Below are positions 1-10,142 of a stretch of DNA of 11,150 nucleotides, one piece after another (the stretch's first letter is position 1; each line of letters opens with the position of its first letter). This stretch comes from a virus. Lineage: Duplodnaviria > Heunggongvirae > Uroviricota > Caudoviricetes. The DNA lies in the IMG/VR virus record IMGVR_UViG_2558860288_000004, positions 1 to 11,150 of that record. One strand, given 5' to 3'. A program made the translations under genes and the position numbers. The notes under the pieces were generated by a model, which did not search any database, was not told where the DNA came from, and saw nothing but the letters and a program-made list of their open reading frames with translations.

Positions 1-1203
1 GTGTTTCAGCAGGAAAAGCAGGCTCAGCGGCAGAAAGATTTTCAGCAGGCATACGCTAATGCTTATGCGTCTGGTGATCGCGGTGCTTTGCGTCAGTTGG
101 CTACTCAATATCCAGACCAGATTGAATCCGTTCGTAAAGGCATGGGATTCATTGATGAAGACCAGCGTAATTCTATCGGCACCTTAGCGGCTGGCGCACG
201 CCTTGCGTCATCGTCTCCAGAAGCAATGCAATCATGGCTGCAAAACAACGCCAAGGAACTGACTCGCGTCGGTGTTGACCCTAACAGCGTTGCTCAGATG
301 TATCAGCAGAACCCTTCAGGATTTGGTGAGTTTGTTGATCACCTTGGAATGGCTGCTCTTGGTCCGATTGATTACTTCAATGTTCAGGACAAGATGGCAG
401 GTCGTGAGATTGACCGAGGCAGGCTGGCAGAGACAATCCGCAGCAATCAGGCTGGCGAGGCGCTAACAGCACGAGGCCAGAACATCACGATGCGCGGTCA
501 GGACTTATCTGCTTCTACTGCGAGACGCGGGCAGGATTTGGCAATGCAGCGAGCGTCAACAAGAGGAACCGCTGGGAATGATGAGCGTACAGTTCAGTTA
601 TCAGATGGCAGAACTGTAACGGTAGGCGGGAAGCTTCATGGCGCTGGGGCTAATGCGTTCTACGAAGGCATCGACAACGAGGGGAATATGGTTCGCGTTC
701 CTGCCAGTTCAATCGCAGCGCCTGCAACATCGTCTGCATCAGCACAAAACTATGCCATGAAGAAGGATATCGACGCGATCGCAAATGCAGATGCTTCTGC
801 TCTCGATTTCATGACAGGAATGACCGGCGGTGCAGGTAATCCAGCAATTGGTGCTGATGTTCGCAGCAGATTAACAGGAAAAGAGCAGCGCCAGTTATAT
901 AACTCAGCACAACGGATTCAGGGCAGAATGCAGAATCAGGGTGTGGCGGCAGCAAGGGACATGGGTGCCAGTGGTATTAACACCGTTGCAGAAGCGAAGA
1001 TGTATTTTCAGGGGATGCCGCAGGTTGACTATTCAAGCCCGGAGGCTATGCAGCAGTCGATTCGTGAGATTCAGGAATACACCAACAATTACAATCAACA
1101 ATATAACGTTAATGTTGGTAAATCTCAGCGGCAGCAATCTCAACCTGCACAGGTATCACAGCCAGCAGCCAGCAGTAACTTTTCTTCACTATGGGGTGAT
1201 TAA
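1..1203 (+). CDS. Phage virion DNA-ejection (injection) protein, P22 gp20-like; 5'-partial, open to the window edge
   Basis: Reading frame is open from base 1 (the GTG at position 1 is not a demonstrated start) to TAA at 1201-1203. Ala/Gln/Gly-rich, no enzymatic motif. Sits immediately upstream of and translationally coupled (TAATG) to a 665-aa gp16-like protein, and upstream of mnt and tailspike, which matches the P22 order 7-20-16-immI-9. Product assignment is by position and composition, not by recognised motif. Confidence 0.5.
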
Positions 1204-3200
1204 TGGCTAAAGCATGGAAAGATGTTATCGCCTCTCCACAGTATCAGGCGTTAGCACCAGAACAAAAAGCGCAGGCTCAGGAGCAATACTTCAATGAAGT
1301 CGTGGCCCCGCAAGCCGGAGAAAATGCAGAGCAGGCTAAGCAAGCTTTCTATGCTGCCTATCCATTGCCATCTGTGCAGCCAGTGGAGACACAACAACCA
1401 GAAGCACAGCAACAACCACAGCAAACTGGATTTATGTCTGATCTTGGTGAAGCCGTGAAAGAAACTGGTCGCGGACTGGTGCAGGCTGGCGTAAACGTGG
1501 CAAACATACCTGCATCAGTTGCCGATGCTGTAACAAGCGCGGCGGCTTGGGCTGGCGGTAAACTCGGTATTGGCGATGGTACATATCAACCAGCGCCACG
1601 AGTAACAACGCAGGGGTTAGAGCAGGACTTTGGCCTTCAGCAAGGCGCGCTGACTCCACAAACGACAGAGGGCAGGGTATTTGCTGAAGCATTGCCTTAC
1701 CTCACTCCTGCTGGCGTTGAGAGAGCAGCAACACAGGCACCAACACTTGCTGGTCGAATTGCTCAGGGGGCAACACGACTTCTCGCAGAAAACGCAGTTG
1801 GATCACTTGCTGCAAATAGTGCGAAAGATGATGCGGAAGCACTCGCCACCGATTTAGGCGTTGGTGTGCTGGCTGGCGGTGCTATTAACGCTGCCGGACG
1901 TGGATTAGGTGCTGCTTATCGTGGCGTTCGTGGTGCTATTGCGCCAGAAGCGCAGCAGGCTATCAGATTTGCAGAGCGTGAAGGAGTTCCTCTGCACACC
2001 ACAGACCTGTTACAGCCTACTTCCCGCGTCGGGAAAATGGCGCAGACTACAGCAGAAAATATCCCCCTGGCTGGCACAAGCGGAATGAGAGCAACGCAAC
2101 AGGAAGCGAGAAGCCAGTTGGTGCAGAGATTTGCTGATAAATTCGGTGAGTATGATCCAGCTGTTGTTATTGACAGCCTTAAAGCGAAAACATCAGGAAT
2201 TCGTCGTGCCGCCGGTAATCGACTGGAGCAGGTTCAGAATGCTATGGCTGGAGTAAACATTCAGCCTGCGCGAGCAATTCAGCAGATTGATACAGAAATA
2301 TCTAATCTGCAGAAGCTTGGTAAGGTAGCTGATAACGAGACAATTTCAAAACTTCAGTCATATCGTGATGAGCTTGTTCGCAATGCTGGCCCTGATGGTC
2401 CGGTTAATCTGGATTTGAAGCAATTAAGCGATCTGCGCAGCCAGTTCAGAATGGACGTGAAGGGGGAGCGACCAGTGTTACCAAACCGTTCCGATGCCGC
2501 CATTCAACGTGTTTACAAGGCGATGACCGACGATATCAATGGTGCCATTGGTCAGAATCTTGGCAACGATACTCTCCGTAAATATCAGCAGGCCAATGCC
2601 GTCTACGCTGACGAAGCGGCGAAACTAAAGAATACCAGGCTGAAGAATGTTCTCATGAAAGGAGACCTGACGCCGGAAGTTGTCAACAACATGCTATTCA
2701 GCAAGAACAAATCGGAAATTAAGACGCTGTATAACTCAGTTGGTCGTGTTGGCAGGGCGCAAATGCGCAATGGCATCATTGGAAAGGCGATGGAGAAATC
2801 TGGCAGATCCCCTGACCAGTTCCTTCGGCAGCTTAACATCCTGCAAAACCAGACTGGCATCACATTTAAGGGGCAGGACGCTGCTTATCTGAAAGGATTA
2901 AAAAACTACCTGCAATCCACGCAGCAGGCTGCAAAAGCGGCAGTAACAACACCCACAGGGCAGCAAACTATCCCGTTCATTATTGGGTATGGGACGGCAA
3001 TGAACCCGGCGACAACTGGCGCAGCAGTAAGCTACGGACTTCTTACTCGCGCCTATGAGAGCGAGCCATTCAGAAATGCAATGCTCCGAATGGCAAACAC
3101 CCCACGCGGATCAACAGCGTTTGAGAAAGCCATGCAGCAGGCACAAAAGGCAATTAACGCTATGACGCAGGGGGCTAAGTCTGATGCGTTTTCAGAATAG
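1203..3200 (+). CDS. Phage virion DNA-ejection (injection) protein, P22 gp16-like
   Basis: 665-aa ORF; ATG at 1203 overlaps the upstream TAA by one base (TAATG) with GGGGTG upstream as a possible RBS. Ala/Gly/Gln-rich with a low-complexity stretch QQPEAQQQPQQ near the N-terminus. It is the last large structural gene before the mnt/tailspike region, as gp16 is in P22-like phages. Assignment rests on synteny and size. Confidence 0.55.
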   Translation: MAKAWKDVIASPQYQALAPEQKAQAQEQYFNEVVAPQAGENAEQAKQAFYAAYPLPSVQPVETQQPEAQQQPQQTGFMSDLGEAVKETGRGLVQAGVNVANIPASVADAVTSAAAWAGGKLGIGDGTYQPAPRVTTQGLEQDFGLQQGALTPQTTEGRVFAEALPYLTPAGVERAATQAPTLAGRIAQGATRLLAENAVGSLAANSAKDDAEALATDLGVGVLAGGAINAAGRGLGAAYRGVRGAIAPEAQQAIRFAEREGVPLHTTDLLQPTSRVGKMAQTTAENIPLAGTSGMRATQQEARSQLVQRFADKFGEYDPAVVIDSLKAKTSGIRRAAGNRLEQVQNAMAGVNIQPARAIQQIDTEISNLQKLGKVADNETISKLQSYRDELVRNAGPDGPVNLDLKQLSDLRSQFRMDVKGERPVLPNRSDAAIQRVYKAMTDDINGAIGQNLGNDTLRKYQQANAVYADEAAKLKNTRLKNVLMKGDLTPEVVNNMLFSKNKSEIKTLYNSVGRVGRAQMRNGIIGKAMEKSGRSPDQFLRQLNILQNQTGITFKGQDAAYLKGLKNYLQSTQQAAKAAVTTPTGQQTIPFIIGYGTAMNPATTGAAVSYGLLTRAYESEPFRNAMLRMANTPRGSTAFEKAMQQAQKAINAMTQGAKSDAFSE

Positions 3201-3289
3201 CTTTTCAAACACCAGGAACGTGCAAAAACCAAATATGTAGAACGCAATATTCAGCATATCTCTTTGCATAAATCCTCCGTAACTGATGG

Positions 3290-3550
3290 TTAGCTGCTGT
3301 CTTTTTTATATAGCTCCTTGAGCGTATCAAAGACAATTTTCTTAACCATATCAGATTGTTGTTCTGCCATACGCTCTGCATCGTCAATGTAAACAGATGC
3401 AGAGCTTTGTTTAGCCAATGATTCTTCAATCGCTGCAATTATCTCTGAGTTCAGCGACCTGTTATTCATCTTCGCACGCTGCTTAATTTTCGCGTGGAGT
3501 TCATGCGGAAGTCTCAAGTGAAACTGCGCCTCGTCGTATTTGCTGTACAT
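3290..3550 (-). CDS. mnt: Mnt-like ribbon-helix-helix transcriptional repressor (Arc/MetJ superfamily)
   Basis: Translation ...FHLRLPHELHAKIKQRAKMNNRSLNSEIIAAIEESLAK...YIDDAERMAEQQSDMVKKIVFDTLKELYKKDSS aligns along its length with P22 Mnt as I recall it (FNFRMPMEVREKLKFRAEANGRSMNSELLQIV...NDAERLADEQSELVKKMVFDTLKDLYKK). I chose the ATG at 3550 (MYSKYDEAQF..., 86 aa), which matches Mnt length; the ORF track extends the frame to 3583. Stop TAA at 3290-3292. Confidence 0.8.
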   Translation of the reverse strand: MYSKYDEAQFHLRLPHELHAKIKQRAKMNNRSLNSEIIAAIEESLAKQSSASVYIDDAERMAEQQSDMVKKIVFDTLKELYKKDSS

Positions 3551-3671
3551 CCTTGATGCCTCACCAGTTGGGTGGAATGGCATCGTAACCTACTGGATAA
3601 ATACTCAATAGTACCATTTCGGTATGCAATCACATCATGGTTGCATCATATCATTCGTCTGGAGCAATGAA
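3551..3671. promoter_or_regulatory. Divergent control region between mnt (minus strand) and tailspike (plus strand); holds the tailspike RBS and a short inverted repeat ATGCAA-N11-TTGCAT (3624-3646)
   Basis: 121-bp AT-rich intergenic region between divergent starts. GGAG at 3661-3664 lies 7 nt upstream of the tailspike ATG (3672). ATGCAA at 3624-3629 and its reverse complement TTGCAT at 3641-3646 form a 6-bp inverted repeat. No convincing sigma70 -35/-10 pair could be fixed by eye. Confidence 0.3.
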
Positions 3672-5828
3672 ATGTCAGATATCACCGCAAATGTTGTGGT
3701 CAGCATGCCTTCGCAACTCTTCACCATGGCTCATTCTTTTAAAGCCGTAGCCAATGGCAAAATTTATATCGGTAAAATTGACACTGACCCGGTAAATCCT
3801 GAAAACCAGATTCAGGTTTATGTGGAGAACGAAGACGGTTCTCACGTTCCTGTTTCGCAACCAATCATCATTAATGCGGCTGGTTACCCGGTATATAACG
3901 GACAGATTGCCAAGTTCGTAACTGTGCAAGGCCATTCGATGGCTGTTTATGATGCATACGGTGTGCAGCAGTTCTATTTTCCTAATGTGCTGAAGTATGA
4001 CCCGGATCAGTTTTCTGCAGAATGGCTTGCCAAGATGTCTGCGCCTGATTCTTATGCATTATTTGGTACATTCTCATCAATAGCAGATCTACGAGCATTT
4101 ACTGCATACTCATCAGTTAAGGAAAATGGAAGAGTCTATGTTGATTCTTATCACCTTGGAGCTGGTTATGGCGGAGGATATTTCCGCTGGAATTCAACTA
4201 GCACTGATACTGATGACGGTGGCTATACCATTAACCCAACTGGCAATACTGGAACAGGACGCTGGAAGCGAGAGATATCCTCTGCGTATGTCGCAAGGAC
4301 GGTGAGTCCGTTGGAGTTTGGGGCAAAAATTAACGATAGTACTTTCGACTGCGCGCCAGCTATCAATGCGGCTATTTTATATTTGAATCCTTATCTTGAT
4401 TCCTCATATGATTCTCATCAGGGTGGAGATATTGTGTTGCCAGCAGGGCAGTTTTATATTAATGACACTATATACGGCTCTCCCAATGTCAGGGTGCTGG
4501 GAATTGGCGGCACTCCAGGGTTCAGATATTCTAGGTCTGGGTGTTCTGTTATTGTCGCAATGCCCACAATGGATCTCATGAAAATTATGTATGATACCGC
4601 CCCGTGGTTGACAGACGGCACATCCAGATACACTAATACAAACGAGATGGTTTACGGCAGAACGGAAAGTCAGGGATACTATGGGACCTACATTGAGAAC
4701 ATAGTTTTTGTTGGAAATGCAGATCAACAGTGCGGAGTACGTATCTGGCGAGTTCCATGCTCCACTCTCAAAGGTGTTGCAGTCTACTCCTGTAAAGTAA
4801 GTTTCTGGGTAAATGGTTCGTGGGATGTGATGCTTGATAATTGCTTCTCATATGGCGCGAAGTACGCCACAATTTTGCCTTATCAAATTACATCGCTTCG
4901 CATAGTAGGCGGCTATTATACAGGAAATACTGCACAACTTTATTCTATGGGGACTGAACAGTGGTTTCATCGAGCGATAGATGAAACTAACAAGCCAAAC
5001 ATTGCTTATGTAACTACTTTCATGTATGCATATAACAGTTTTGATATAAATCTGTATGGCGTAACAATAGAAGGGTACAACAGAGAGTTTGCTCTTTTTT
5101 ATTGCGGCAATGTTAATATGTTTGGTGGGTATACAGAATGGATTGGAGTACCTGCAAGCGAGACAGGGCATCGTGTTTTTGTGCATGGTGTTGCCTCAGA
5201 GTTTTATTCAACAGGGACATACTTTAATCACGACATTAAAGATCTGGCGGTGCAGTCAGGGAATGTTTTTGACACTACTTCAGGAGAATACCTCCCATCT
5301 GAAAGATCACGAGTGATAATTGAAAATCCAAGAGTGGTAACAAAATTCCAGAATCTTACTAAAGATTTAGGATATGGCTCCTACAATATTGTCATAAAAA
5401 ACCAACACCCTATCACAGATAGCTTATCGACTACACTTTCAGCGCAGAGGCTTTTTACAGTTCAATTTGTTGGATTGCTAGACCAGTATACAATGCGAAC
5501 TCCTGCTGTAACTGCAAATGGTACAGTGAGCTTTAGTATCCAGATTGGAAATATTGCAGATGGAGGTGAGTATAGCGTTAGGCTTTTGATGAGAAACACC
5601 GCATCCACTGTACAGCAGGATTTAAGATTTACAGTGTTGGTAGGAACAACAACAACTGTTACTGGCTACCAGGGACGCTCGAAGGCTGGGACCACATTAA
5701 TACCAGCACCCACAGCAACATTCACTGGTAGCACATTAACTCTTACTTTCACAGGTAATTCAGGTTATTATTCATTCTTCAGAATGAAGTGCGTTCCTGT
5801 AGAAGATCAACCTATTTATACCTATTGA
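3672..5828 (+). CDS. Phage tailspike protein: P22 gp9-like N-terminal head-binding domain fused to a beta-helix-type receptor-binding (probable O-antigen depolymerase) body of unknown specificity
   Basis: From the ATG at 3672 (preceded by GGAG) the protein begins [59 protein letters not shown]...[15 protein letters not shown]...[10 protein letters not shown], a close match to the P22 gp9 head-binding domain. The remaining roughly 600 aa are Gly/Asn/Tyr/Ser/Thr-rich, as in right-handed beta-helix tailspike bodies, with a Thr-rich C-terminal segment. The 16 codons upstream in the ORF track (from 3624) are probably not translated. Stop TGA at 5826-5828. Confidence 0.9.
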
Positions 5829-5850: not shown

Positions 5851-5880
5851 CTGCCAATAGACTTTATTGGCAGGATTTTT
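5851..5880 (+). terminator. Rho-independent terminator hairpin downstream of the tailspike, shared with the convergent gtrC-like gene
   Basis: Perfect 9-bp stem CTGCCAATA (5851-5859) / TATTGGCAG (5865-5873) with a 5-nt loop, followed by GGATTTTTTAT on the plus strand. The stop codon of the minus-strand gtrC-like gene (TAA, 5864-5866) lies inside the hairpin. Confidence 0.6.
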
Positions 5881-7318
5881 TATCAAAATCAACAATCAAA
5901 ACGCTATCCTTGATATAGGAATTTAGCCATTGCCCCTGAAAGGATAGGTTACCTTCACATTTATGAGAAATGTAATTTTTAGCCTTGTTTGCTGGCATGT
6001 ATGTATTCTTTATCCCATTAAATGACATGTACGCACTTCCCCAATACCAGTTCCAGAAGTAATCTGTGACTGAATAGTTTATCAAAGGAAAGTTTAATGC
6101 TGCATTTTTTACAGCTTCGGATCTTGGTGCTGTGCCGGTAAACACAATGCTAACATTATCACTACCAGCGTCGCGAATGGATTGCATAATTTCAGAAAGA
6201 ACTACTTTATTTATCCTTTCCTGAGCCTTCAAAGCATTTCCGTATGCATACATTAAAATCATAGAATACAATACGGGTATTAATGTAATTGATGTTACGT
6301 ATCTATGTTCTTTAAAGCAATAATATAGCAATGTACTCATGAGGACATAAAAAACTCCAACCGACATGTATAAGTGAACTCCTCCCAATGGGTTGGCGAG
6401 AACCAGCAATGCCCCCATAGTCATTGGCATAGCGATTGCTGTTGCGAGTATCGCTCCAGTTATAACGTTAAATACTTTCCAGTTTAGGCCTTTACATTTA
6501 ACGTATTTGTAACTCAGAAACGCCGTCATAATAATGCAAGCTAAAGCTGACAGGAGTAATAATTCACCACCGATAACCCTGTAAAAATTTGTAGAAGCAA
6601 AATCGTAATACTTTAAGCTGTTATTCTTTAGTGCACCAAATATATCATTTGATATTCTTGGGTGATTAGATGAATAATGCCCGCTAAAAGTTATGGGTAA
6701 TATGAATTTCACGTATATCACACCACCTACTAAAACCTGCATTATACGTAATGCAACCCTTTTAAGTATTAACTGCGGGTCAGTAAATCTGGCCATGTTA
6801 ACTATTACTTCACATATTAATAAAATCGCAACGACATTAATGACTGCCTGATAAGTGCCAAGCACTATCACTACAAATGCGGTGCCTATTATTAATTCAT
6901 GAGCCAGTCTTTTGCACTTAATTGCAAAGAGAGCAAATGCAGATGCAATGGAGAAACTGAAAGTTAAAACATCAAACCGATAAGAGAACATTGATATAAT
7001 AGCTGGATTCGCCATGAATGCCAGAGGTATAATAAAGCTCCATTTTCCCCCATCAAGAAACCTCTTTCTGTAACATGCAAAAGATATTGCAAGCAGCACA
7101 GAAGCAAGAATGATTGGTAGAGGTGCAAGATCGACGATTCTGGAGCTAAGATTGAGAACTGACATTACTATATCAGCTACAGGCCTCCCGTCCACACCCC
7201 ATTTAGTATAACCAACAGTCGTTCGCCCAATATCATCAACATAAAATTGATTTGCTAGGATAATTGGCAATATAAATATAAAAATAACATACGAGTAACG
7301 TTTTGAGTTGTTAATCAT
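5864..7318 (-). CDS. Serotype/type-specific O-antigen glucosyltransferase of the Gtr family (GtrC/Gtr-type-like), polytopic inner-membrane protein
   Basis: 484-aa strongly hydrophobic multi-span protein lying directly after gtrA and gtrB; its start overlaps the gtrB stop (ATGATTAA). Position, size and membrane character match the third, type-specific gene of gtr clusters. It is markedly AT-rich compared with the ejection-protein genes. I do not recognise which Gtr type it is. Confidence 0.65.
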
Positions 7319-8237
7319 TTTTATTCTTACCCTTTAAAATATATCTTGGACGCTGTTTAACCTCGATATAAATCCTTCCGATGTATTCACCAAGTACCCC
7401 TATACCGATCAACTGAATCCCGCCCAAGAAAAGTATCGATACCAGCAGGGATGGATAACCTCTAACCGGGTTTCCAAACGCCAGAGTGTCCAGAATCATC
7501 CATGCGCCATATGTAAATGCTAAGCCAGCGACGAGAAGGCCGATGTAAGTCCACATACGTAGCGGAAAAGTCGAGAAGCTCGTAATTCCCTCAAGAGCAA
7601 GATTCCACAACTTCCATCCGTTGAACTTGGTACTGCCAGCAACACGTTCTGCGCGGGCATAATCAACGATATCAGTGCGACCACCAACCCAACTCAAAAC
7701 ACCCTTCATGAAAAGGTTGCGCTCAGGCATGAGCTTAATGTTTTCTACCACCTCGCGAGACATTAGCCTGAAATCTCCAACATTTTCCTCGATCTGCGGG
7801 TTGCTGATTTTGTTATGCAGCTTATAGAACCACTCGGCGGTTTTCCTCTTCAGTCTGCCATCCGTTGAGCGGTCAGATCGTTTAGCAAGCACCATATCAG
7901 CACCTGCCTGCCACTTTTCAATAAGATGAGGAATAACCTCAATCGGGTCTTGCAGGTCAACATCAATTGGGATTATAGCATCCCCAGTTGCATGGTCTAA
8001 CCCTGCAAACAATGCTGGTTCTTTACCAAAGTTGCGTGTAAATGACAGCGGAACAACTAGAGGATCTGAAACAGCCAGAGCATTAATAATTGACTCCGTA
8101 GCGTCTTTGCTGCCGTCATTTATGAAAACAATTTCCACTTCATATGACTTCAATTCTTCGAATTCACGTACCGTTTTATAAAAAATTGGTATCGCTTCTT
8201 CTTCATTGAAGACAGGAACGACCAGAGATATCTTCAT
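7311..8237 (-). CDS. gtrB: Bactoprenol (undecaprenyl-phosphate) glucosyltransferase GtrB, GT2 family
   Basis: 308 aa beginning [26 protein letters not shown]..., the typical GT-A N-terminus, with a DxD-type motif ([10 protein letters not shown]) and C-terminal transmembrane helices. Start ATG overlaps the gtrA stop (ATGA). Matches my recollection of GtrB/YfdH. Confidence 0.9.
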
Positions 8238-8596
8238 TTCGCATCCCTAAAGACAATGAACTTTGAATAGACGAAACCGCACACCAGGCTGATGGCGGAG
8301 AAGGTGACAAGAGTGACAATTGGAGGAAGTGAACATCTATCAGCAGCCCATCCAACAGTAGCACTCAGTGTTCCCATGAACCCGACATATAACATGTAGC
8401 GCATCGTTGTAGTTGATGCTTTGAATGTGAATTTTGCATTCGCGAAGAAGCTAAAACTCACAGCCACAACAAAACCTGCGAAGTTTGCCAGAGCCTGATT
8501 GGTATGCGCGGCATAGATACATACACCAAAAACCACCCAGTGTATAAGGGTGTTCAGCACGCCAATAGAGGTGTACTTTGCAAATAGTTTTAACAT
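8234..8596 (-). CDS. gtrA: GtrA family flippase for bactoprenol-linked glucose (4-TM small membrane protein)
   Basis: 120 aa, [31 protein letters not shown]..., the characteristic GtrA size and sequence; first gene of the gtr operon, immediately downstream of int on the same strand. Confidence 0.9.
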
Positions 8597-8748: not shown

Positions 8749-9906
8749 TCACTCCACCTTTTCATCAATCCAGTCCGCCCACCACTGCATCATTTCTCTG
8801 CGCTTATCGAGATACTGAGCATGGTTGTAAATTCCACGTACAGATCCGCCGTTGGCATGTGCCAGTTGCACTTCAATAGCATCAGCAGGCCATTCGTGCT
8901 CGTTCATAATCGTGCTGAATTCATGCCTGAATCCGTGACCGCTTTCCAGACCTTCATAGCCGATTTGTTTGATCACAAGCAATACCGCGTTCTCGCAGAT
9001 TGGCTTCTTCTTATCGTTGCGCCCGGCAAAAACAAACTCTGAGACTGGTTTGGTGATTGAGCTTAGCGTAGTGAGAAGTTCAACTACCTGGTCTGACATA
9101 GGAACCACATGAATTTTGCGTCCCTTCATCACATTGGCGTCGATGGTGATAATCCTGTTTTCAAAATCGACGTTCTTCCATAGCATGGAACGAAGCTCTT
9201 TTGTCCTGAGGGCTGTGTAGCGTAAAACTTTGGTCGCAATGAGCGATACGATGCTTCCTGAAAATGTTGCCAGTGCTTTGTTAAATGCCGGGATCTGGTC
9301 TGCAGGAAGAAACGGGAAGTTTTTCTTGCGGTATCCCTTCATGGCGTCAGCAAGGTCAGGTGCCGGGTTATATTTAGCCCTACCAGTGACAATAGCGTAA
9401 CGGAAAACCTCGCCGCATCTTCTGCGGGCTTTATTTGCTCGCTCCATTGCACCGCGATCTTCAAATCTGCGGATTACTTCCAGCAGTTGCATCGGCTCAA
9501 TATCCTGAATTTCAAGGCCGCCGATGATAGGTAAAATGTCGTCATCAAACATTTTTGCAAGTTCAGTCGCATAGCCTACTGACCAGACTTGCTTCTTGTG
9601 CTCGTACCATTCCTTGTAAATCGCACTAAAGGAATTGTTGTTAGACGAGGCCTTTTTCGCTTTTACCGGATCGATGCCAACCGAGATGTCTTTCCTCGCA
9701 GTCCATGCTTTATCCCTTGCCTCCTGCAAAGTCATAAGCGGATATTTTCCGACGGTCAGGATTTTCTCCTTACCGTCAATCTTGTAGCGAAGCTGCCAGA
9801 CCTTTTTCCCTGATACAGGGACATAAAGGTACAGGCCATTACCATCGAGAAGGCGGTATGGTTTTTCTTTCGGCTTTGCTGCTTCAATCTGCTTAACGGT
9901 GAGCAT
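8749..9906 (-). CDS. intS: Tyrosine site-specific recombinase (phage integrase, P4-like family), argW-associated
   Basis: N-terminus from the ATG at 9906, MLTVKQIEAAKPKEKPYRLLDGNGLYLYVPVSGKKVWQLRYKIDGKEK, is the canonical P4-family arm-binding start. C-terminal catalytic region has RTKELRSM ... HGFRHEFST ... VRGIYNHAQY (Arg/His-x-x-Arg/Tyr signature). The resulting 385 aa, adjacent to argW, matches my recollection of E. coli IntS. The ORF track's longer frame (GTG at 9942) adds 12 residues I consider unlikely. Stop TGA at 8749-8751. Confidence 0.85.
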   Translation of the reverse strand: MLTVKQIEAAKPKEKPYRLLDGNGLYLYVPVSGKKVWQLRYKIDGKEKILTVGKYPLMTLQEARDKAWTARKDISVGIDPVKAKKASSNNNSFSAIYKEWYEHKKQVWSVGYATELAKMFDDDILPIIGGLEIQDIEPMQLLEVIRRFEDRGAMERANKARRRCGEVFRYAIVTGRAKYNPAPDLADAMKGYRKKNFPFLPADQIPAFNKALATFSGSIVSLIATKVLRYTALRTKELRSMLWKNVDFENRIITIDANVMKGRKIHVVPMSDQVVELLTTLSSITKPVSEFVFAGRNDKKKPICENAVLLVIKQIGYEGLESGHGFRHEFSTIMNEHEWPADAIEVQLAHANGGSVRGIYNHAQYLDKRREMMQWWADWIDEKVE

Positions 9907-10002
9907 GGGTAAAAATCCGGTGGGTAAAATTATTTTATCCACTTTTTACCCGTCATGGAGTGCGGCTGTCAACGATCTGACGCGAACCATGACGAACCGT
10001 GA
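9907..10002. repeat. Cluster of short repeats in the int upstream region: GGGTAAAA x2 direct (9907-9914, 9922-9929) plus one inverted copy TTTTACCC (9945-9952), and tandem CGAACC(A/G)TGA x2 (9983-10002); candidate integrase arm-type or accessory-factor sites
   Basis: Read directly from the sequence. They lie between the int start and the tRNA 3' end, where P-arm binding sites are expected in tRNA-integrating phages. No functional evidence. Confidence 0.3.
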
Positions 10003-10067: not shown

Positions 10068-10100
10068 TGGTGTCCCCTGCAGGAATCGAACCTGCAATTA
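10068..10100. other. Probable prophage attachment-site core (attL or attR) overlapping the 3' part of argW; exact extent not determinable from this window
   Basis: Inference from architecture: the integrase gene abuts the 3' end of the tRNA, as is usual for tRNA-integrating phages, where the phage supplies the 3' segment of the tRNA. The second copy of the core must lie outside the window, so the boundaries cannot be set. Confidence 0.35.
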
Positions 10101-10142
10101 GCCCTTAGGAGGGGCTCGTTATATCCATTTAACTAAGAGGAC
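10068..10142 (-). tRNA. argW: tRNA-Arg (anticodon CCU)
   Basis: Reverse complement of 10068-10142 reads GTCCTCTTAGTTAAATGGATATAACGAGCCCCTCCTAAGGGCTAATTGCAGGTTCGATTCCTGCAGGGGACACCA. It has a 7-bp acceptor stem (GTCCTCT/AGGGGAC), anticodon stem AGCCC/GGGCT with loop CTCCTAA (anticodon CCT), T-loop GGTTCGATTCC and an encoded CCA 3' end. Matches my recollection of E. coli argW. Confidence 0.95.

What the first reader, a model, noticed from the sequence alone, without database searches (positions are those of the whole stretch)
3290..3671. Orphan Mnt repressor: immI region reduced to mnt alone, directly divergent from the tailspike gene
In P22 the immI region between gene 16 and gene 9 contains mnt, arc and ant, with Mnt repressing the antirepressor promoter. 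Here a clear Mnt homologue is present, but only 121 bp separate it from the tailspike start and there is no room for arc or ant. Mnt therefore has no obvious cognate target; it may control the promoter now facing the tailspike, autoregulate, or act in trans on an ant elsewhere or in a co-resident phage.
Basis: partly seen in the sequence, partly recalled or inferred. Interest (0 to 1): 0.55.

Follow-up and report, generated by a model that had tools for sequence, protein, structure and literature searches.

The report
Mnt repressor without antirepressor, beside tailspike
This is a genuine, selection-maintained Mnt-type phage repressor with its own operator, sitting next to the tailspike gene with no antirepressor to control; that layout is common in E. 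coli and Shigella P22-like phages and similar ones are already described, so it is ordinary rather than a surprise.

Summary
Window 3290-3550 (-) encodes an 86-aa Mnt homologue (Pfam Arc 1e-14 plus Repressor_Mnt 3e-14; PDB 1MNT 3e-19, 1QEY 2e-8). It lies 121 bp from the tailspike start (3672), with no arc or ant.

It is not unusual:
- The same junction is in phages IME10 and Sf101 (97.7% identity), in 223 of 5,426 complete E. coli genomes, and in 79 of 80 IMG/VR relatives, none with Arc or Ant nearby.
- Mnt-only "ant morons" are published for ST64T, ST104 and phage L.

The gene is not a relic: 56 alleles give dN/dS 0.15.

At the position of P22's Mnt operator (Omnt) lies AGTACCATTTCGGTATG (3610-3626). 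It co-varies with the Mnt N-terminal recognition strand across genera and occurs once in the complete Sf101 genome.

No Pant-like promoter faces the tailspike. A leftward promoter homologous to P22's mnt promoter (Pmnt) is conserved in position. Local autoregulation is therefore the best-supported role. No target elsewhere (in trans) was found.

The region is also not "mnt alone". A conserved 25-codon hydrophobic ORF (3192-3269, -) follows mnt.

Verdict: a new member of a known kind, low-to-moderate interest.

The parts
3290..3550 (-). mnt coding sequence, 86 aa plus stop: N-terminal ribbon-helix-helix DNA-binding domain and C-terminal Mnt tetramerisation helix
   Evidence: Pfam Arc 1e-14 and Repressor_Mnt 3.3e-14. 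PDB 1MNT 3.4e-19 and 1QEY 1.7e-8. 56 unique alleles give dN/dS 0.146, with segregating sites 14/12/37 by codon position.
3559..3565 (-). ribosome-binding site of mnt (GGTGAGG on the minus strand), 8 nt before the ATG at 3550
   Evidence: Read directly from the sequence. Nearly invariant in the alignment of 38 unique intergenic sequences: one variant at 3559. P22 mnt has GGAGTG at the equivalent place.
3582..3608 (-). candidate mnt promoter, positional homologue of P22 Pmnt: -35 TTGAGT (3603-3608) and -10 TACGAT (3582-3587). The spacer is 15 bp in this allele and 17 bp in sister alleles.
   Evidence: Alignment with the annotated P22 Pmnt. A position-weight scan recovers P22 Pant (16.6) and Pmnt (13.3) as controls. 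It scores this site 8.5 in the 135-bp alleles and in the Buttiauxella, Serratia and VSe13 sequences, and 6.8 here. This part is inferred, not shown.
3610..3626 (.). candidate Mnt operator AGTACCATTTCGGTATG (symmetric core TACC-N5-GGTA at 3612-3624), at the position of P22 Omnt
   Evidence: It sits just after the conserved CTCAAT, exactly where P22 has AGGTCCACGGTGGACCT. It co-varies with the Mnt N-terminal strand across phages and genera. The core is conserved, with three single-base exceptions, among 38 unique intergenic sequences. It occurs once in the window and once in the whole Sf101 genome, against 0.16 expected.
3562..3574 (.). second short palindrome CACC-N5-GGTG, overlapping the mnt ribosome-binding site; significance uncertain
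   Evidence: The arms are conserved while the 5-nt centre varies. Three further copies of the degenerate YACC-N5-GGTR pattern occur in Sf101, so chance is not excluded.
3624..3646 (+). 9-bp-arm inverted repeat or hairpin ATGCAATCA-N5-TGGTTGCAT in the tailspike leader
   Evidence: It is perfect in IME10. 96% of cells pair across 12 variants, but only one change is on both sides and the shuffle controls are weak. Hairpins of unrelated sequence occupy the same place in P22, epsilon34, the 135-bp alleles and Sf6.
3661..5828 (+). tailspike ribosome-binding site (GGAG, 3661-3664) and tailspike gene (3672-5828)
   Evidence: Head_binding domain 9.8e-66 over residues 1-113. The leader and the first five codons are conserved across relatives.
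3192..3269 (-). unannotated 25-codon ORF MQRDMLNIAFYIFGFCTFLVFEKLF (hydrophobic, single-helix-like). GGAGG site at 3274-3278. Starts 20 nt after the mnt stop and overlaps the last 9 nt of gene 16.
   Evidence: 25 unique alleles in 103 copies, all intact. Segregating sites 6/5/13 by codon position and dN/dS 0.17. Also intact in Sf6, which has no mnt.
1203..3200 (+). gene 16 homologue (DNA ejection/transfer protein), the left boundary of the variable region
   Evidence: ORF list. Annotated as a lytic transglycosylase domain or P22-gp16 family protein in relatives.

Best explanation
The ORF is a working Mnt-family repressor: a ribbon-helix-helix dimer of dimers held together by the C-terminal Mnt helix. 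Its DNA specificity differs from P22 Mnt. Its cognate site is the 17-bp element at 3610-3626, which sits where P22 has its Mnt operator (Omnt), immediately beyond the -35 of the leftward mnt promoter. No antirepressor and no Pant-like promoter exist here. The protein therefore most likely acts only on its own control region. It would set the level of a short, prophage-expressed leftward transcript (mnt plus the 25-codon membrane-peptide ORF) and keep the region upstream of the tailspike leader quiet in the lysogen. The module is the normal content of this slot in E. coli and Shigella P22-like phages, not a freshly truncated immI. Shown: family identity, purifying selection, operator conservation and co-variation, uniqueness of the operator, absence of ant, absence of a strong rightward promoter. 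Inferred: binding to that site, promoter position, autoregulation, co-transcription of the small ORF.
For: Identity. Purifying selection: dN/dS 0.146 overall and 0.09 in the DNA-binding domain, with only 3 disrupted copies. Operator position matches P22 Omnt. Co-variation: strand DEAQFHLRL goes with GTACC-R-TTT-N-GGTAY in Escherichia, Salmonella phage VSe13, Buttiauxella and Serratia. Strand RDDPHFNFRMP goes with AGGTCCACGGTGGAC(C/T) in P22, epsilon34, Pluralibacter and Pectobacterium. Strand RDDPQFNLRLP goes with AGACCAC-N-GTGGTC in Gally and GMF054. The DNA-binding half of mnt and the operator travel together as one recombination unit: VSe13 matches window 3456-3626 only. The operator is single-copy in Sf101, and the core occurs twice in the BUCT2930 prophage, the second copy unrelated in sequence. 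No Arc or Ant in complete relatives or in 80 loci. The Pmnt homologue is conserved, and tailspike-facing promoter scores stay at or below 8.2 against 16.6 for P22 Pant. The small ORF lies directly downstream with a strong ribosome-binding site.
Against: No binding or transcription data exist. In this allele the Pmnt homologue has a 15-bp spacer and scores only 6.8, and other weak leftward candidates exist. From my own recollection of Vershon et al. 1987 (not held in the paper library), an operator upstream of the -35 stimulated P22 Pmnt indirectly by shutting Pant. Without Pant the effect on Pmnt is unclear. Pure autoregulation does not explain why selection keeps the gene. Sf101 has mnt but not the small ORF, and Sf6 has the small ORF but not mnt, so the two are not an obligate pair.
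Confidence: 0.5

Rival explanations
1. Immunity in trans. The prophage keeps Mnt to silence the antirepressor promoter of superinfecting or co-resident P22-like phages that carry the same operator type. This would protect the lysogen from induction by a foreign antirepressor.
For: Strong purifying selection without any target in the same genome. P22 Mnt is expressed from the prophage and is the repressor of ant (PMC2629481, PMC7380047). That it also acts on incoming phage genomes is from my own knowledge. Antirepressor cross-talk between prophages is documented (PMC7380047).
Against: No operator of this type was found next to any Arc or Ant gene. Ant-bearing relatives (JEP4, Z0117EC0117, PK5) regulate ant with other proteins and operators. 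None of the close matches of this Mnt type in the phage collection (IME10, Sf101, ECO26.1 3-1, JEP4, VSe13) has arc or ant between mnt and the tailspike in the records inspected.
Confidence: 0.2
2. Gate on tailspike expression. Mnt bound about 50 bp upstream of the tailspike start limits read-through or local rightward transcription into the tailspike gene, and beyond it into antisense of the gtr genes and int, in the lysogen or early in infection.
For: Mnt with its operator is always the immediate left neighbour of the tailspike leader, whatever else the slot holds and whichever tailspike follows. Villafane et al. suggest the ant moron and its repressors may influence tailspike levels in P22 (PMC2629481).
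Against: No promoter-like site faces the tailspike. Sf6-type phages have no mnt at all (PMC2629481). A bound repressor as a block to antiterminated late transcription is speculative.
Confidence: 0.15
3. Functionless remnant of a once complete immI region, kept only by linkage.
For: Zaworski et al. raise this possibility for phage L (PMC8022706). Some copies are broken: a frameshift in PK5, a nonsense codon in one IMG/VR contig, an early stop in Citrobacter. Phages without the module are viable (Sf6).
Against: dN/dS is 0.146 over 56 distinct alleles, with a third-position excess. The operator is conserved across genera where the flanks have diverged. The one Citrobacter pseudogene also has a mutated operator (TACT), as expected if the gene and site are normally constrained together.
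Confidence: 0.1

Closest known systems
P22 Mnt repressor and its immI control region (Pmnt, Omnt, Pant)
   Same: Same two-domain protein, 49% identical over residues 6-85. Same gene orientation, antisense to the late operon. The operator is at the same position relative to the leftward promoter, just after the conserved CTCAAT.
   Different: No arc, ant, sar RNA or ant terminator. The P22 Pant hexamers are not conserved. In the alignment the N-terminal strand differs from P22 at three positions (Y for R2, Q for H6, H for N8) and keeps R10. That these positions contact DNA is from my own knowledge. The operator is TACC-N5-GGTA instead of TCCAC-G-GTGGA.
Mnt-only 'ant morons' of Salmonella phages L, ST64T, ST104 and prophage Para1
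   Same: The slot between gene 16 and the tailspike holds mnt plus one short gene of unknown function, with no arc, ant or sieA. The function of the orphan mnt is stated to be unknown (PMC2629481; PMC8022706).
   Different: A different Mnt allele and operator type. The companion here is a 25-codon ORF rather than orf62. The hosts are E. coli and Shigella.
Phages IME10 and Sf101, and E. coli argW prophages such as the one in strain BUCT2930
   Same: Essentially the same DNA, 97.7% identical over 3150-3750. Same gene order: gene 16, mnt, tailspike, O-antigen modification genes, int.
   Different: Sf101 lacks the 89-bp segment with the small ORF. In IME10 the gene is unannotated. In the RefSeq copy of Sf101 it is labelled 'partition protein ATPase'.
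Arc repressor of P22
   Same: Same ribbon-helix-helix fold family (Pfam Arc; PDB 1ARQ 1e-3).
   Different: Arc has 53 residues and lacks the Mnt C-terminal tetramerisation helix. This protein has that helix (PF11423 3e-14, 1QEY 2e-8).

Membership tests
Mnt repressor family (P22 Mnt type) | N-terminal ribbon-helix-helix DNA-binding domain of the Arc/MetJ type | tested here: met
   Pfam PF03869 at 1e-14, 54.5 bits against a cut-off of 20.4. Aligned to 1MNT over residues 6-79 at 3.4e-19.
Mnt repressor family (P22 Mnt type) | C-terminal helix that joins two dimers into a tetramer | tested here: met
   Pfam PF11423 at 3.3e-14 over residues 68-93 of the 97-aa ORF. 1QEY at 1.7e-8 over residues 56-84. 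The oligomeric state itself was not measured.
Mnt repressor family (P22 Mnt type) | Cognate symmetric operator of about 17 bp next to its own divergent promoter | tested here: met
   The site 3610-3626 is at the Omnt position and co-varies with the recognition strand in more than 15 loci from at least 8 genera. Binding itself was not tested.
Mnt repressor family (P22 Mnt type) | Sequence-specific DNA binding and repression | not testable with these tools
   Needs gel-shift or footprinting experiments and reporter assays.
P22 immI immunity region (mnt-arc-ant) | Antirepressor gene ant downstream of the Mnt-controlled promoter | tested here: not met
   The 121-bp gap holds no ORF. tblastn with P22 Ant and a P22AR-type antirepressor gives no hit in 80 related loci. 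tblastn with P22 Ant alone gives no hit at E<=1 in the complete Sf101 genome or the BUCT2930 prophage.
P22 immI immunity region (mnt-arc-ant) | arc gene and sar antisense RNA | tested here: not met
   The only Arc-like hit is mnt itself. No Rfam match in 3100-3800.
P22 immI immunity region (mnt-arc-ant) | Strong Pant promoter overlapping the Mnt operator | tested here: not met
   The best tailspike-facing score is 7.0 here and at most 8.2 in five sister forms, against 16.6 for P22 Pant with the same scan. The consensus scan finds no plus-strand site.
'Ant moron' slot of P22-like phages (Villafane et al. 2008) | Variable gene set between the gene 16 and tailspike homologues, transcribed independently of the late operon | tested here: met
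   Position confirmed. At least six different contents of the slot were seen in relatives. Described in PMC2629481.

The most novel reading that the evidence does not exclude
The Mnt-operator unit next to the tailspike is a self-standing module kept by selection for a job unrelated to its own phage's antirepressor. It might be a decoy-type immunity factor against foreign antirepressor phages, or a lysogeny-phase gate on the tailspike leader. If so, in most P22-like phages 'Mnt' is not an ant regulator at all, and the textbook P22 wiring is the exception.
Probability: 0.25. Interest if true: 0.5.

Novelty: new member of a known kind. Interest (0 to 1): 0.25.

Why it matters
The finding matters little as a discovery. 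Mnt without ant is documented, and the same DNA is already in GenBank phages. Three things are useful.
1. It gives a concrete, testable operator and a second (arguably third) natural Mnt specificity class for work on ribbon-helix-helix recognition.
2. It shows the orphan gene is under purifying selection. That sharpens the open question, raised for phage L, of what orphan Mnt proteins do.
3. It flags annotation problems: Mnt is labelled 'partition protein ATPase' in RefSeq phage records, and a conserved 25-codon ORF is unannotated.

Tried and rejected
1. The 97-aa reading (start at 3583) is rejected. That ATG lies inside the candidate -10. The GGTGAGG site serves the ATG at 3550. P22 Mnt aligns from there, and PGAP mostly aa.
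2. The 77-aa ORF at 3205-3438 (-), overlapping mnt, has no Pfam hit and is taken as spurious.
3. A promoter facing the tailspike was not found by the consensus scan or by a position-weight scan that recovers both P22 promoters.
4. A second operator elsewhere was sought and not found in the window, Sf101, the BUCT2930 prophage, or the ant operons of JEP4, Z0117EC0117 and PK5.
5. A target in trans was sought by scanning IMG/VR for the operator.
6. The hairpin at 3624-3646 was tested as a conserved RNA. Pairing is 96%, but there is only one two-sided change, 38 of 500 shuffles reach the covariation score, and the folding z-score is -0.9. This is not convincing on its own.
7. No Rfam family matches 3100-3800.
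8. The exact source genome was not found. The best complete E. coli genome covers 70% of the window, so complete relatives served as proxies for 'ant elsewhere'.
9. Structure prediction was not run. The diverse alignment contained sequences the tool would refuse, and the sequence match to solved Mnt structures already answers the fold question.
10. Knight and Sauer 1989 could not be read. The statement that N-terminal residues set Arc/Mnt specificity rests on its title as cited in PMC3413123 and on my own knowledge.

Full report
**Context.** The window is the right end of a P22-like (Lederbergvirus-type) prophage. Its genes, in order, are:
- the C-terminus of gene 20 (1-1203, +) and the gene 16 homologue (1203-3200, +);
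- a small minus-strand ORF (3290-3583);
- the tailspike (3672-5828, +);
- gtrC, gtrB and gtrA (5864-8596, -) and an integrase (8749-9942, -);
- tRNA-Arg(CCU) (10068-10142, -) and the host gene yfdC.

The prophage therefore sits at argW, like the annotated prophage of E. coli BUCT2930.

**Checking the observation.** The minus-strand ORF matches Pfam Arc (1e-14) and Repressor_Mnt (3.3e-14). It aligns to the solved P22 Mnt N-terminal domain (1MNT, 3.4e-19, residues 6-79) and to the tetramerisation domain (1QEY, 1.7e-8).

The mechanical ORF starts at 3583, but the real start is almost certainly the ATG at 3550 (86 aa):
- a GGTGAGG site lies 8 nt upstream of it;
- P22 Mnt aligns from there;
- the upstream ATG falls inside the candidate -10 of the mnt promoter.

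The tailspike begins at 3672 (Head_binding 1e-65). The gap is thus 121 bp, as reported, and cannot hold arc or ant.

**How common is it?**
- The same junction at 97.7% identity is in the isolated phages IME10 and Sf101.
- A search with mnt, the gap and the tailspike start finds it at 80% coverage or more in 223 of 5,426 complete E. coli genomes.
- IMG/VR holds at least 447 relatives. Of the best 80 loci, 79 have the tailspike head-binding domain upstream of mnt, 60 of them at exactly 121 bp. None has a P22 Ant, a P22AR-type antirepressor or a separate Arc within 4 kb.
- Other Mnt alleles are also directly divergent from the tailspike: in Salmonella phage VSe13, E. coli phages JEP4 and Gally, Proteus phage Brookers, and genomes of Escherichia sp., Buttiauxella, Citrobacter and Providencia.
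- Where E. coli relatives do carry ant-like genes, these lie between gene 16 and mnt, convergent with mnt. They are controlled by their own divergent repressor and by different palindromes.
- The classical mnt-arc-ant order was seen in P22, epsilon34 and Pluralibacter. Mnt-arc was seen in Pectobacterium and Phlomobacter.

**What the literature says.** Villafane et al. 2008 named this slot the "ant moron" and found ten types in sixteen genomes. They state that ST64T, ST104 and Para1 contain only mnt plus one gene of unknown function (PMC2629481). Zaworski et al. 2020 say the same of phage L. [quoted passage not shown] An orphan Mnt is therefore a published observation, and its function is an acknowledged open point.

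**Is the gene alive?** Fifty-six distinct 261-nt alleles give a mean dN/dS of 0.146: 0.09 in the DNA-binding domain and 0.23 in the C-terminal part. Segregating sites fall 14/12/37 by codon position. Only three disrupted copies were seen: a frameshift, a nonsense codon, and an early stop in Citrobacter. This argues against a decaying remnant.

**The operator.** P22's annotated Omnt (AGGTCCACGGTGGACCT) follows the motif CTCAAT, which is the reverse complement of the Pmnt -35. The window keeps CTCAAT and follows it with AGTACCATTTCGGTATG (3610-3626; symmetric core TACC-N5-GGTA).

The element tracks the Mnt N-terminal strand:

| Mnt N-terminal strand | Operator | Where seen |
|---|---|---|
| DEAQFHLRL | GTACC-R-TTT-N-GGTAY | Escherichia, Salmonella phage VSe13, Buttiauxella, Serratia |
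| RDDPHFNFRMP | AGGTCCACGGTGGAC(C/T) | P22, epsilon34, Pluralibacter, Pectobacterium |
| RDDPQFNLRLP | AGACCAC-N-GTGGTC | Gally, E. coli GMF054 |

 That N-terminal residues set Arc and Mnt specificity is established (Knight and Sauer 1989, as cited in PMC3413123). Further points:
- VSe13 shares DNA with the window only over 3456-3626, which is the DNA-binding half of mnt plus the control region up to the operator. Reader and site are thus inherited as one unit.
- The core is conserved, with three single-base exceptions, among 38 unique intergenic sequences.
- It occurs once in the window and once in the complete Sf101 genome (0.16 expected). The BUCT2930 prophage has one further, unrelated TACC-N5-GGTA.
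- The Citrobacter pseudogene carries a mutated operator (TACT).

**Promoters.** A simple position-weight scan, with frequencies recalled from published compilations, recovers P22 Pant (16.6) and Pmnt (13.3) as its top hits.

In the forms that abut the tailspike, the best tailspike-facing score is 7.0 here and at most 8.2 elsewhere. The P22 Pant hexamers are not conserved, and the consensus scan finds no plus-strand site.

The leftward promoter homologous to Pmnt is conserved in position. It reads TTGTTG-17-TACGAT (8.5) in the 135-bp alleles and in the Buttiauxella, Serratia and VSe13 sequences, TTGAGG-17-TAAGAT (10.5) in Gally, and TTGTGA-17-TATTAT (11.9) in Providencia. In this allele a 2-bp deletion leaves TTGAGT-15-TACGAT (6.8).

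Some relatives (Buttiauxella, Serratia) also have a stronger leftward promoter with the operator inside its spacer. So the sequence supports control of leftward mnt transcription and does not support a promoter "now facing the tailspike".

**Targets elsewhere.** None was found.
- The complete Sf101 genome and the BUCT2930 prophage show no Arc or Ant homologue at E<=1. Sf101 carries only a Rha-like gene near the lysis cassette, which has no such operator nearby.
- The ant operons of JEP4, Z0117EC0117 and PK5 lack the site.
- A scan of IMG/VR for the 15 specified bases of the operator returned 69 loci beside the same mnt type and 50 unrelated chance hits. None was next to Arc or Ant.

**Not quite alone.** Twenty nucleotides after the mnt stop, behind a GGAGG site, lies a 25-codon ORF (3192-3269, -; MQRDMLNIAFYIFGFCTFLVFEKLF). 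It overlaps the last 9 nt of gene 16.
- All 103 copies (25 distinct alleles) are intact.
- Variation is biased to the third position (6/5/13), which is not the pattern expected from the gene 16 frame on the other strand.
- dN/dS is 0.17.
- It is unannotated in RefSeq.
- It also exists in Sf6, which has no mnt, and is absent from Sf101. It is therefore a separate element that, here, is placed to be co-transcribed with mnt.
- In other relatives the gene after mnt is a 161-aa lipoprotein-like ORF.

**Mechanism.** The best-supported reading (about 0.5) is as follows. An 86-aa Mnt tetramer binds 3610-3626 and regulates its own short, prophage-expressed leftward transcript, with no antirepressor circuit attached.

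The rivals are:
- immunity in trans against foreign ant phages (0.2; attractive because it would explain the selection, but no matching target was found);
- a gate on transcription into the tailspike (0.15; fits the invariant adjacency, but no promoter is seen and Sf6 does without it);
- a functionless remnant (0.1; contradicted by dN/dS).

Binding, promoter use and co-transcription are all inferred.

**Verdict.** The finding is real and correctly identified, but ordinary. The arrangement is widespread, present in sequenced phages, and of a kind already described. The added value is a defined operator and specificity class, evidence of selection, and the unannotated small ORF. Novelty: a new member of a known kind. 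Interest: 0.25.

Noticed in passing
window 3192-3269 (-): Unannotated 25-codon hydrophobic ORF (MQRDMLNIAFYIFGFCTFLVFEKLF) with a GGAGG ribosome-binding site, 20 nt after the mnt stop and overlapping the last 9 nt of gene 16. All 25 alleles (103 copies) are intact. Variation is biased to the third codon position and dN/dS is 0.17. It is also present in Sf6, which lacks mnt, and absent from Sf101.
   Followed up: partly
window 3624-3646 (+); P22 locus L005 and epsilon34 locus L014 upstream of gene 9; Sf6 locus L225: A stem-loop sits about 15-25 nt upstream of the tailspike ribosome-binding site in three versions with unrelated sequences: ATGCAATCA..TGGTTGCAT here, CCGTAGC-CAT-GCTGCGG in P22, epsilon34 and the 135-bp alleles, and CCGGACA..TGTCCGG in Sf6. 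None is followed by a T-run. Covariation within the window type is weak.
   Followed up: partly
L020, L048, L092 (IMG/VR relatives), between mnt and the tailspike: In about 12 of 80 relatives a 0.5-0.7 kb insert carrying an HNH_3 plus AP2 endonuclease gene (Pfam 2e-19 and 2e-16) sits immediately after the first five tailspike codons. A fresh tailspike start follows it. The conserved leader and the first codons look like the recombination joint for tailspike swapping.
   Followed up: partly
RefSeq records NC_027398 (Sf101), NC_002371 (P22), NC_011976 (epsilon34) and others: Mnt is labelled 'partition protein ATPase' in RefSeq phage records, matching the name of PHROG 795. In IME10 the gene is not annotated at all.
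   Followed up: no
window 3562-3574: A second palindrome with the same geometry as the operator core (CACC-N5-GGTG) overlaps the mnt ribosome-binding site. Its arms are invariant while the 5-nt centre varies among alleles. It could be a weak second site, a small hairpin that hides the ribosome-binding site, or chance.
   Followed up: partly
L004 (JEP4), L008, L009 (E. coli prophages): In E. coli relatives that carry antirepressor-like genes (P22AR, KilA, Rha), these lie between gene 16 and mnt, convergent with mnt. They sit behind their own divergent repressor (an HTH or a second Arc/Mnt-like protein) with a different palindrome, for example TGACATCATGGTGATGTCA.
   Followed up: partly
window 3588-3589 compared with the 135-bp alleles: The 121-bp allele has a 2-bp deletion (GTAACC against GTAAAACC). 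This shortens the spacer of the Pmnt-homologous promoter from 17 to 15 bp. Whether this allele uses another promoter is open.
   Followed up: no
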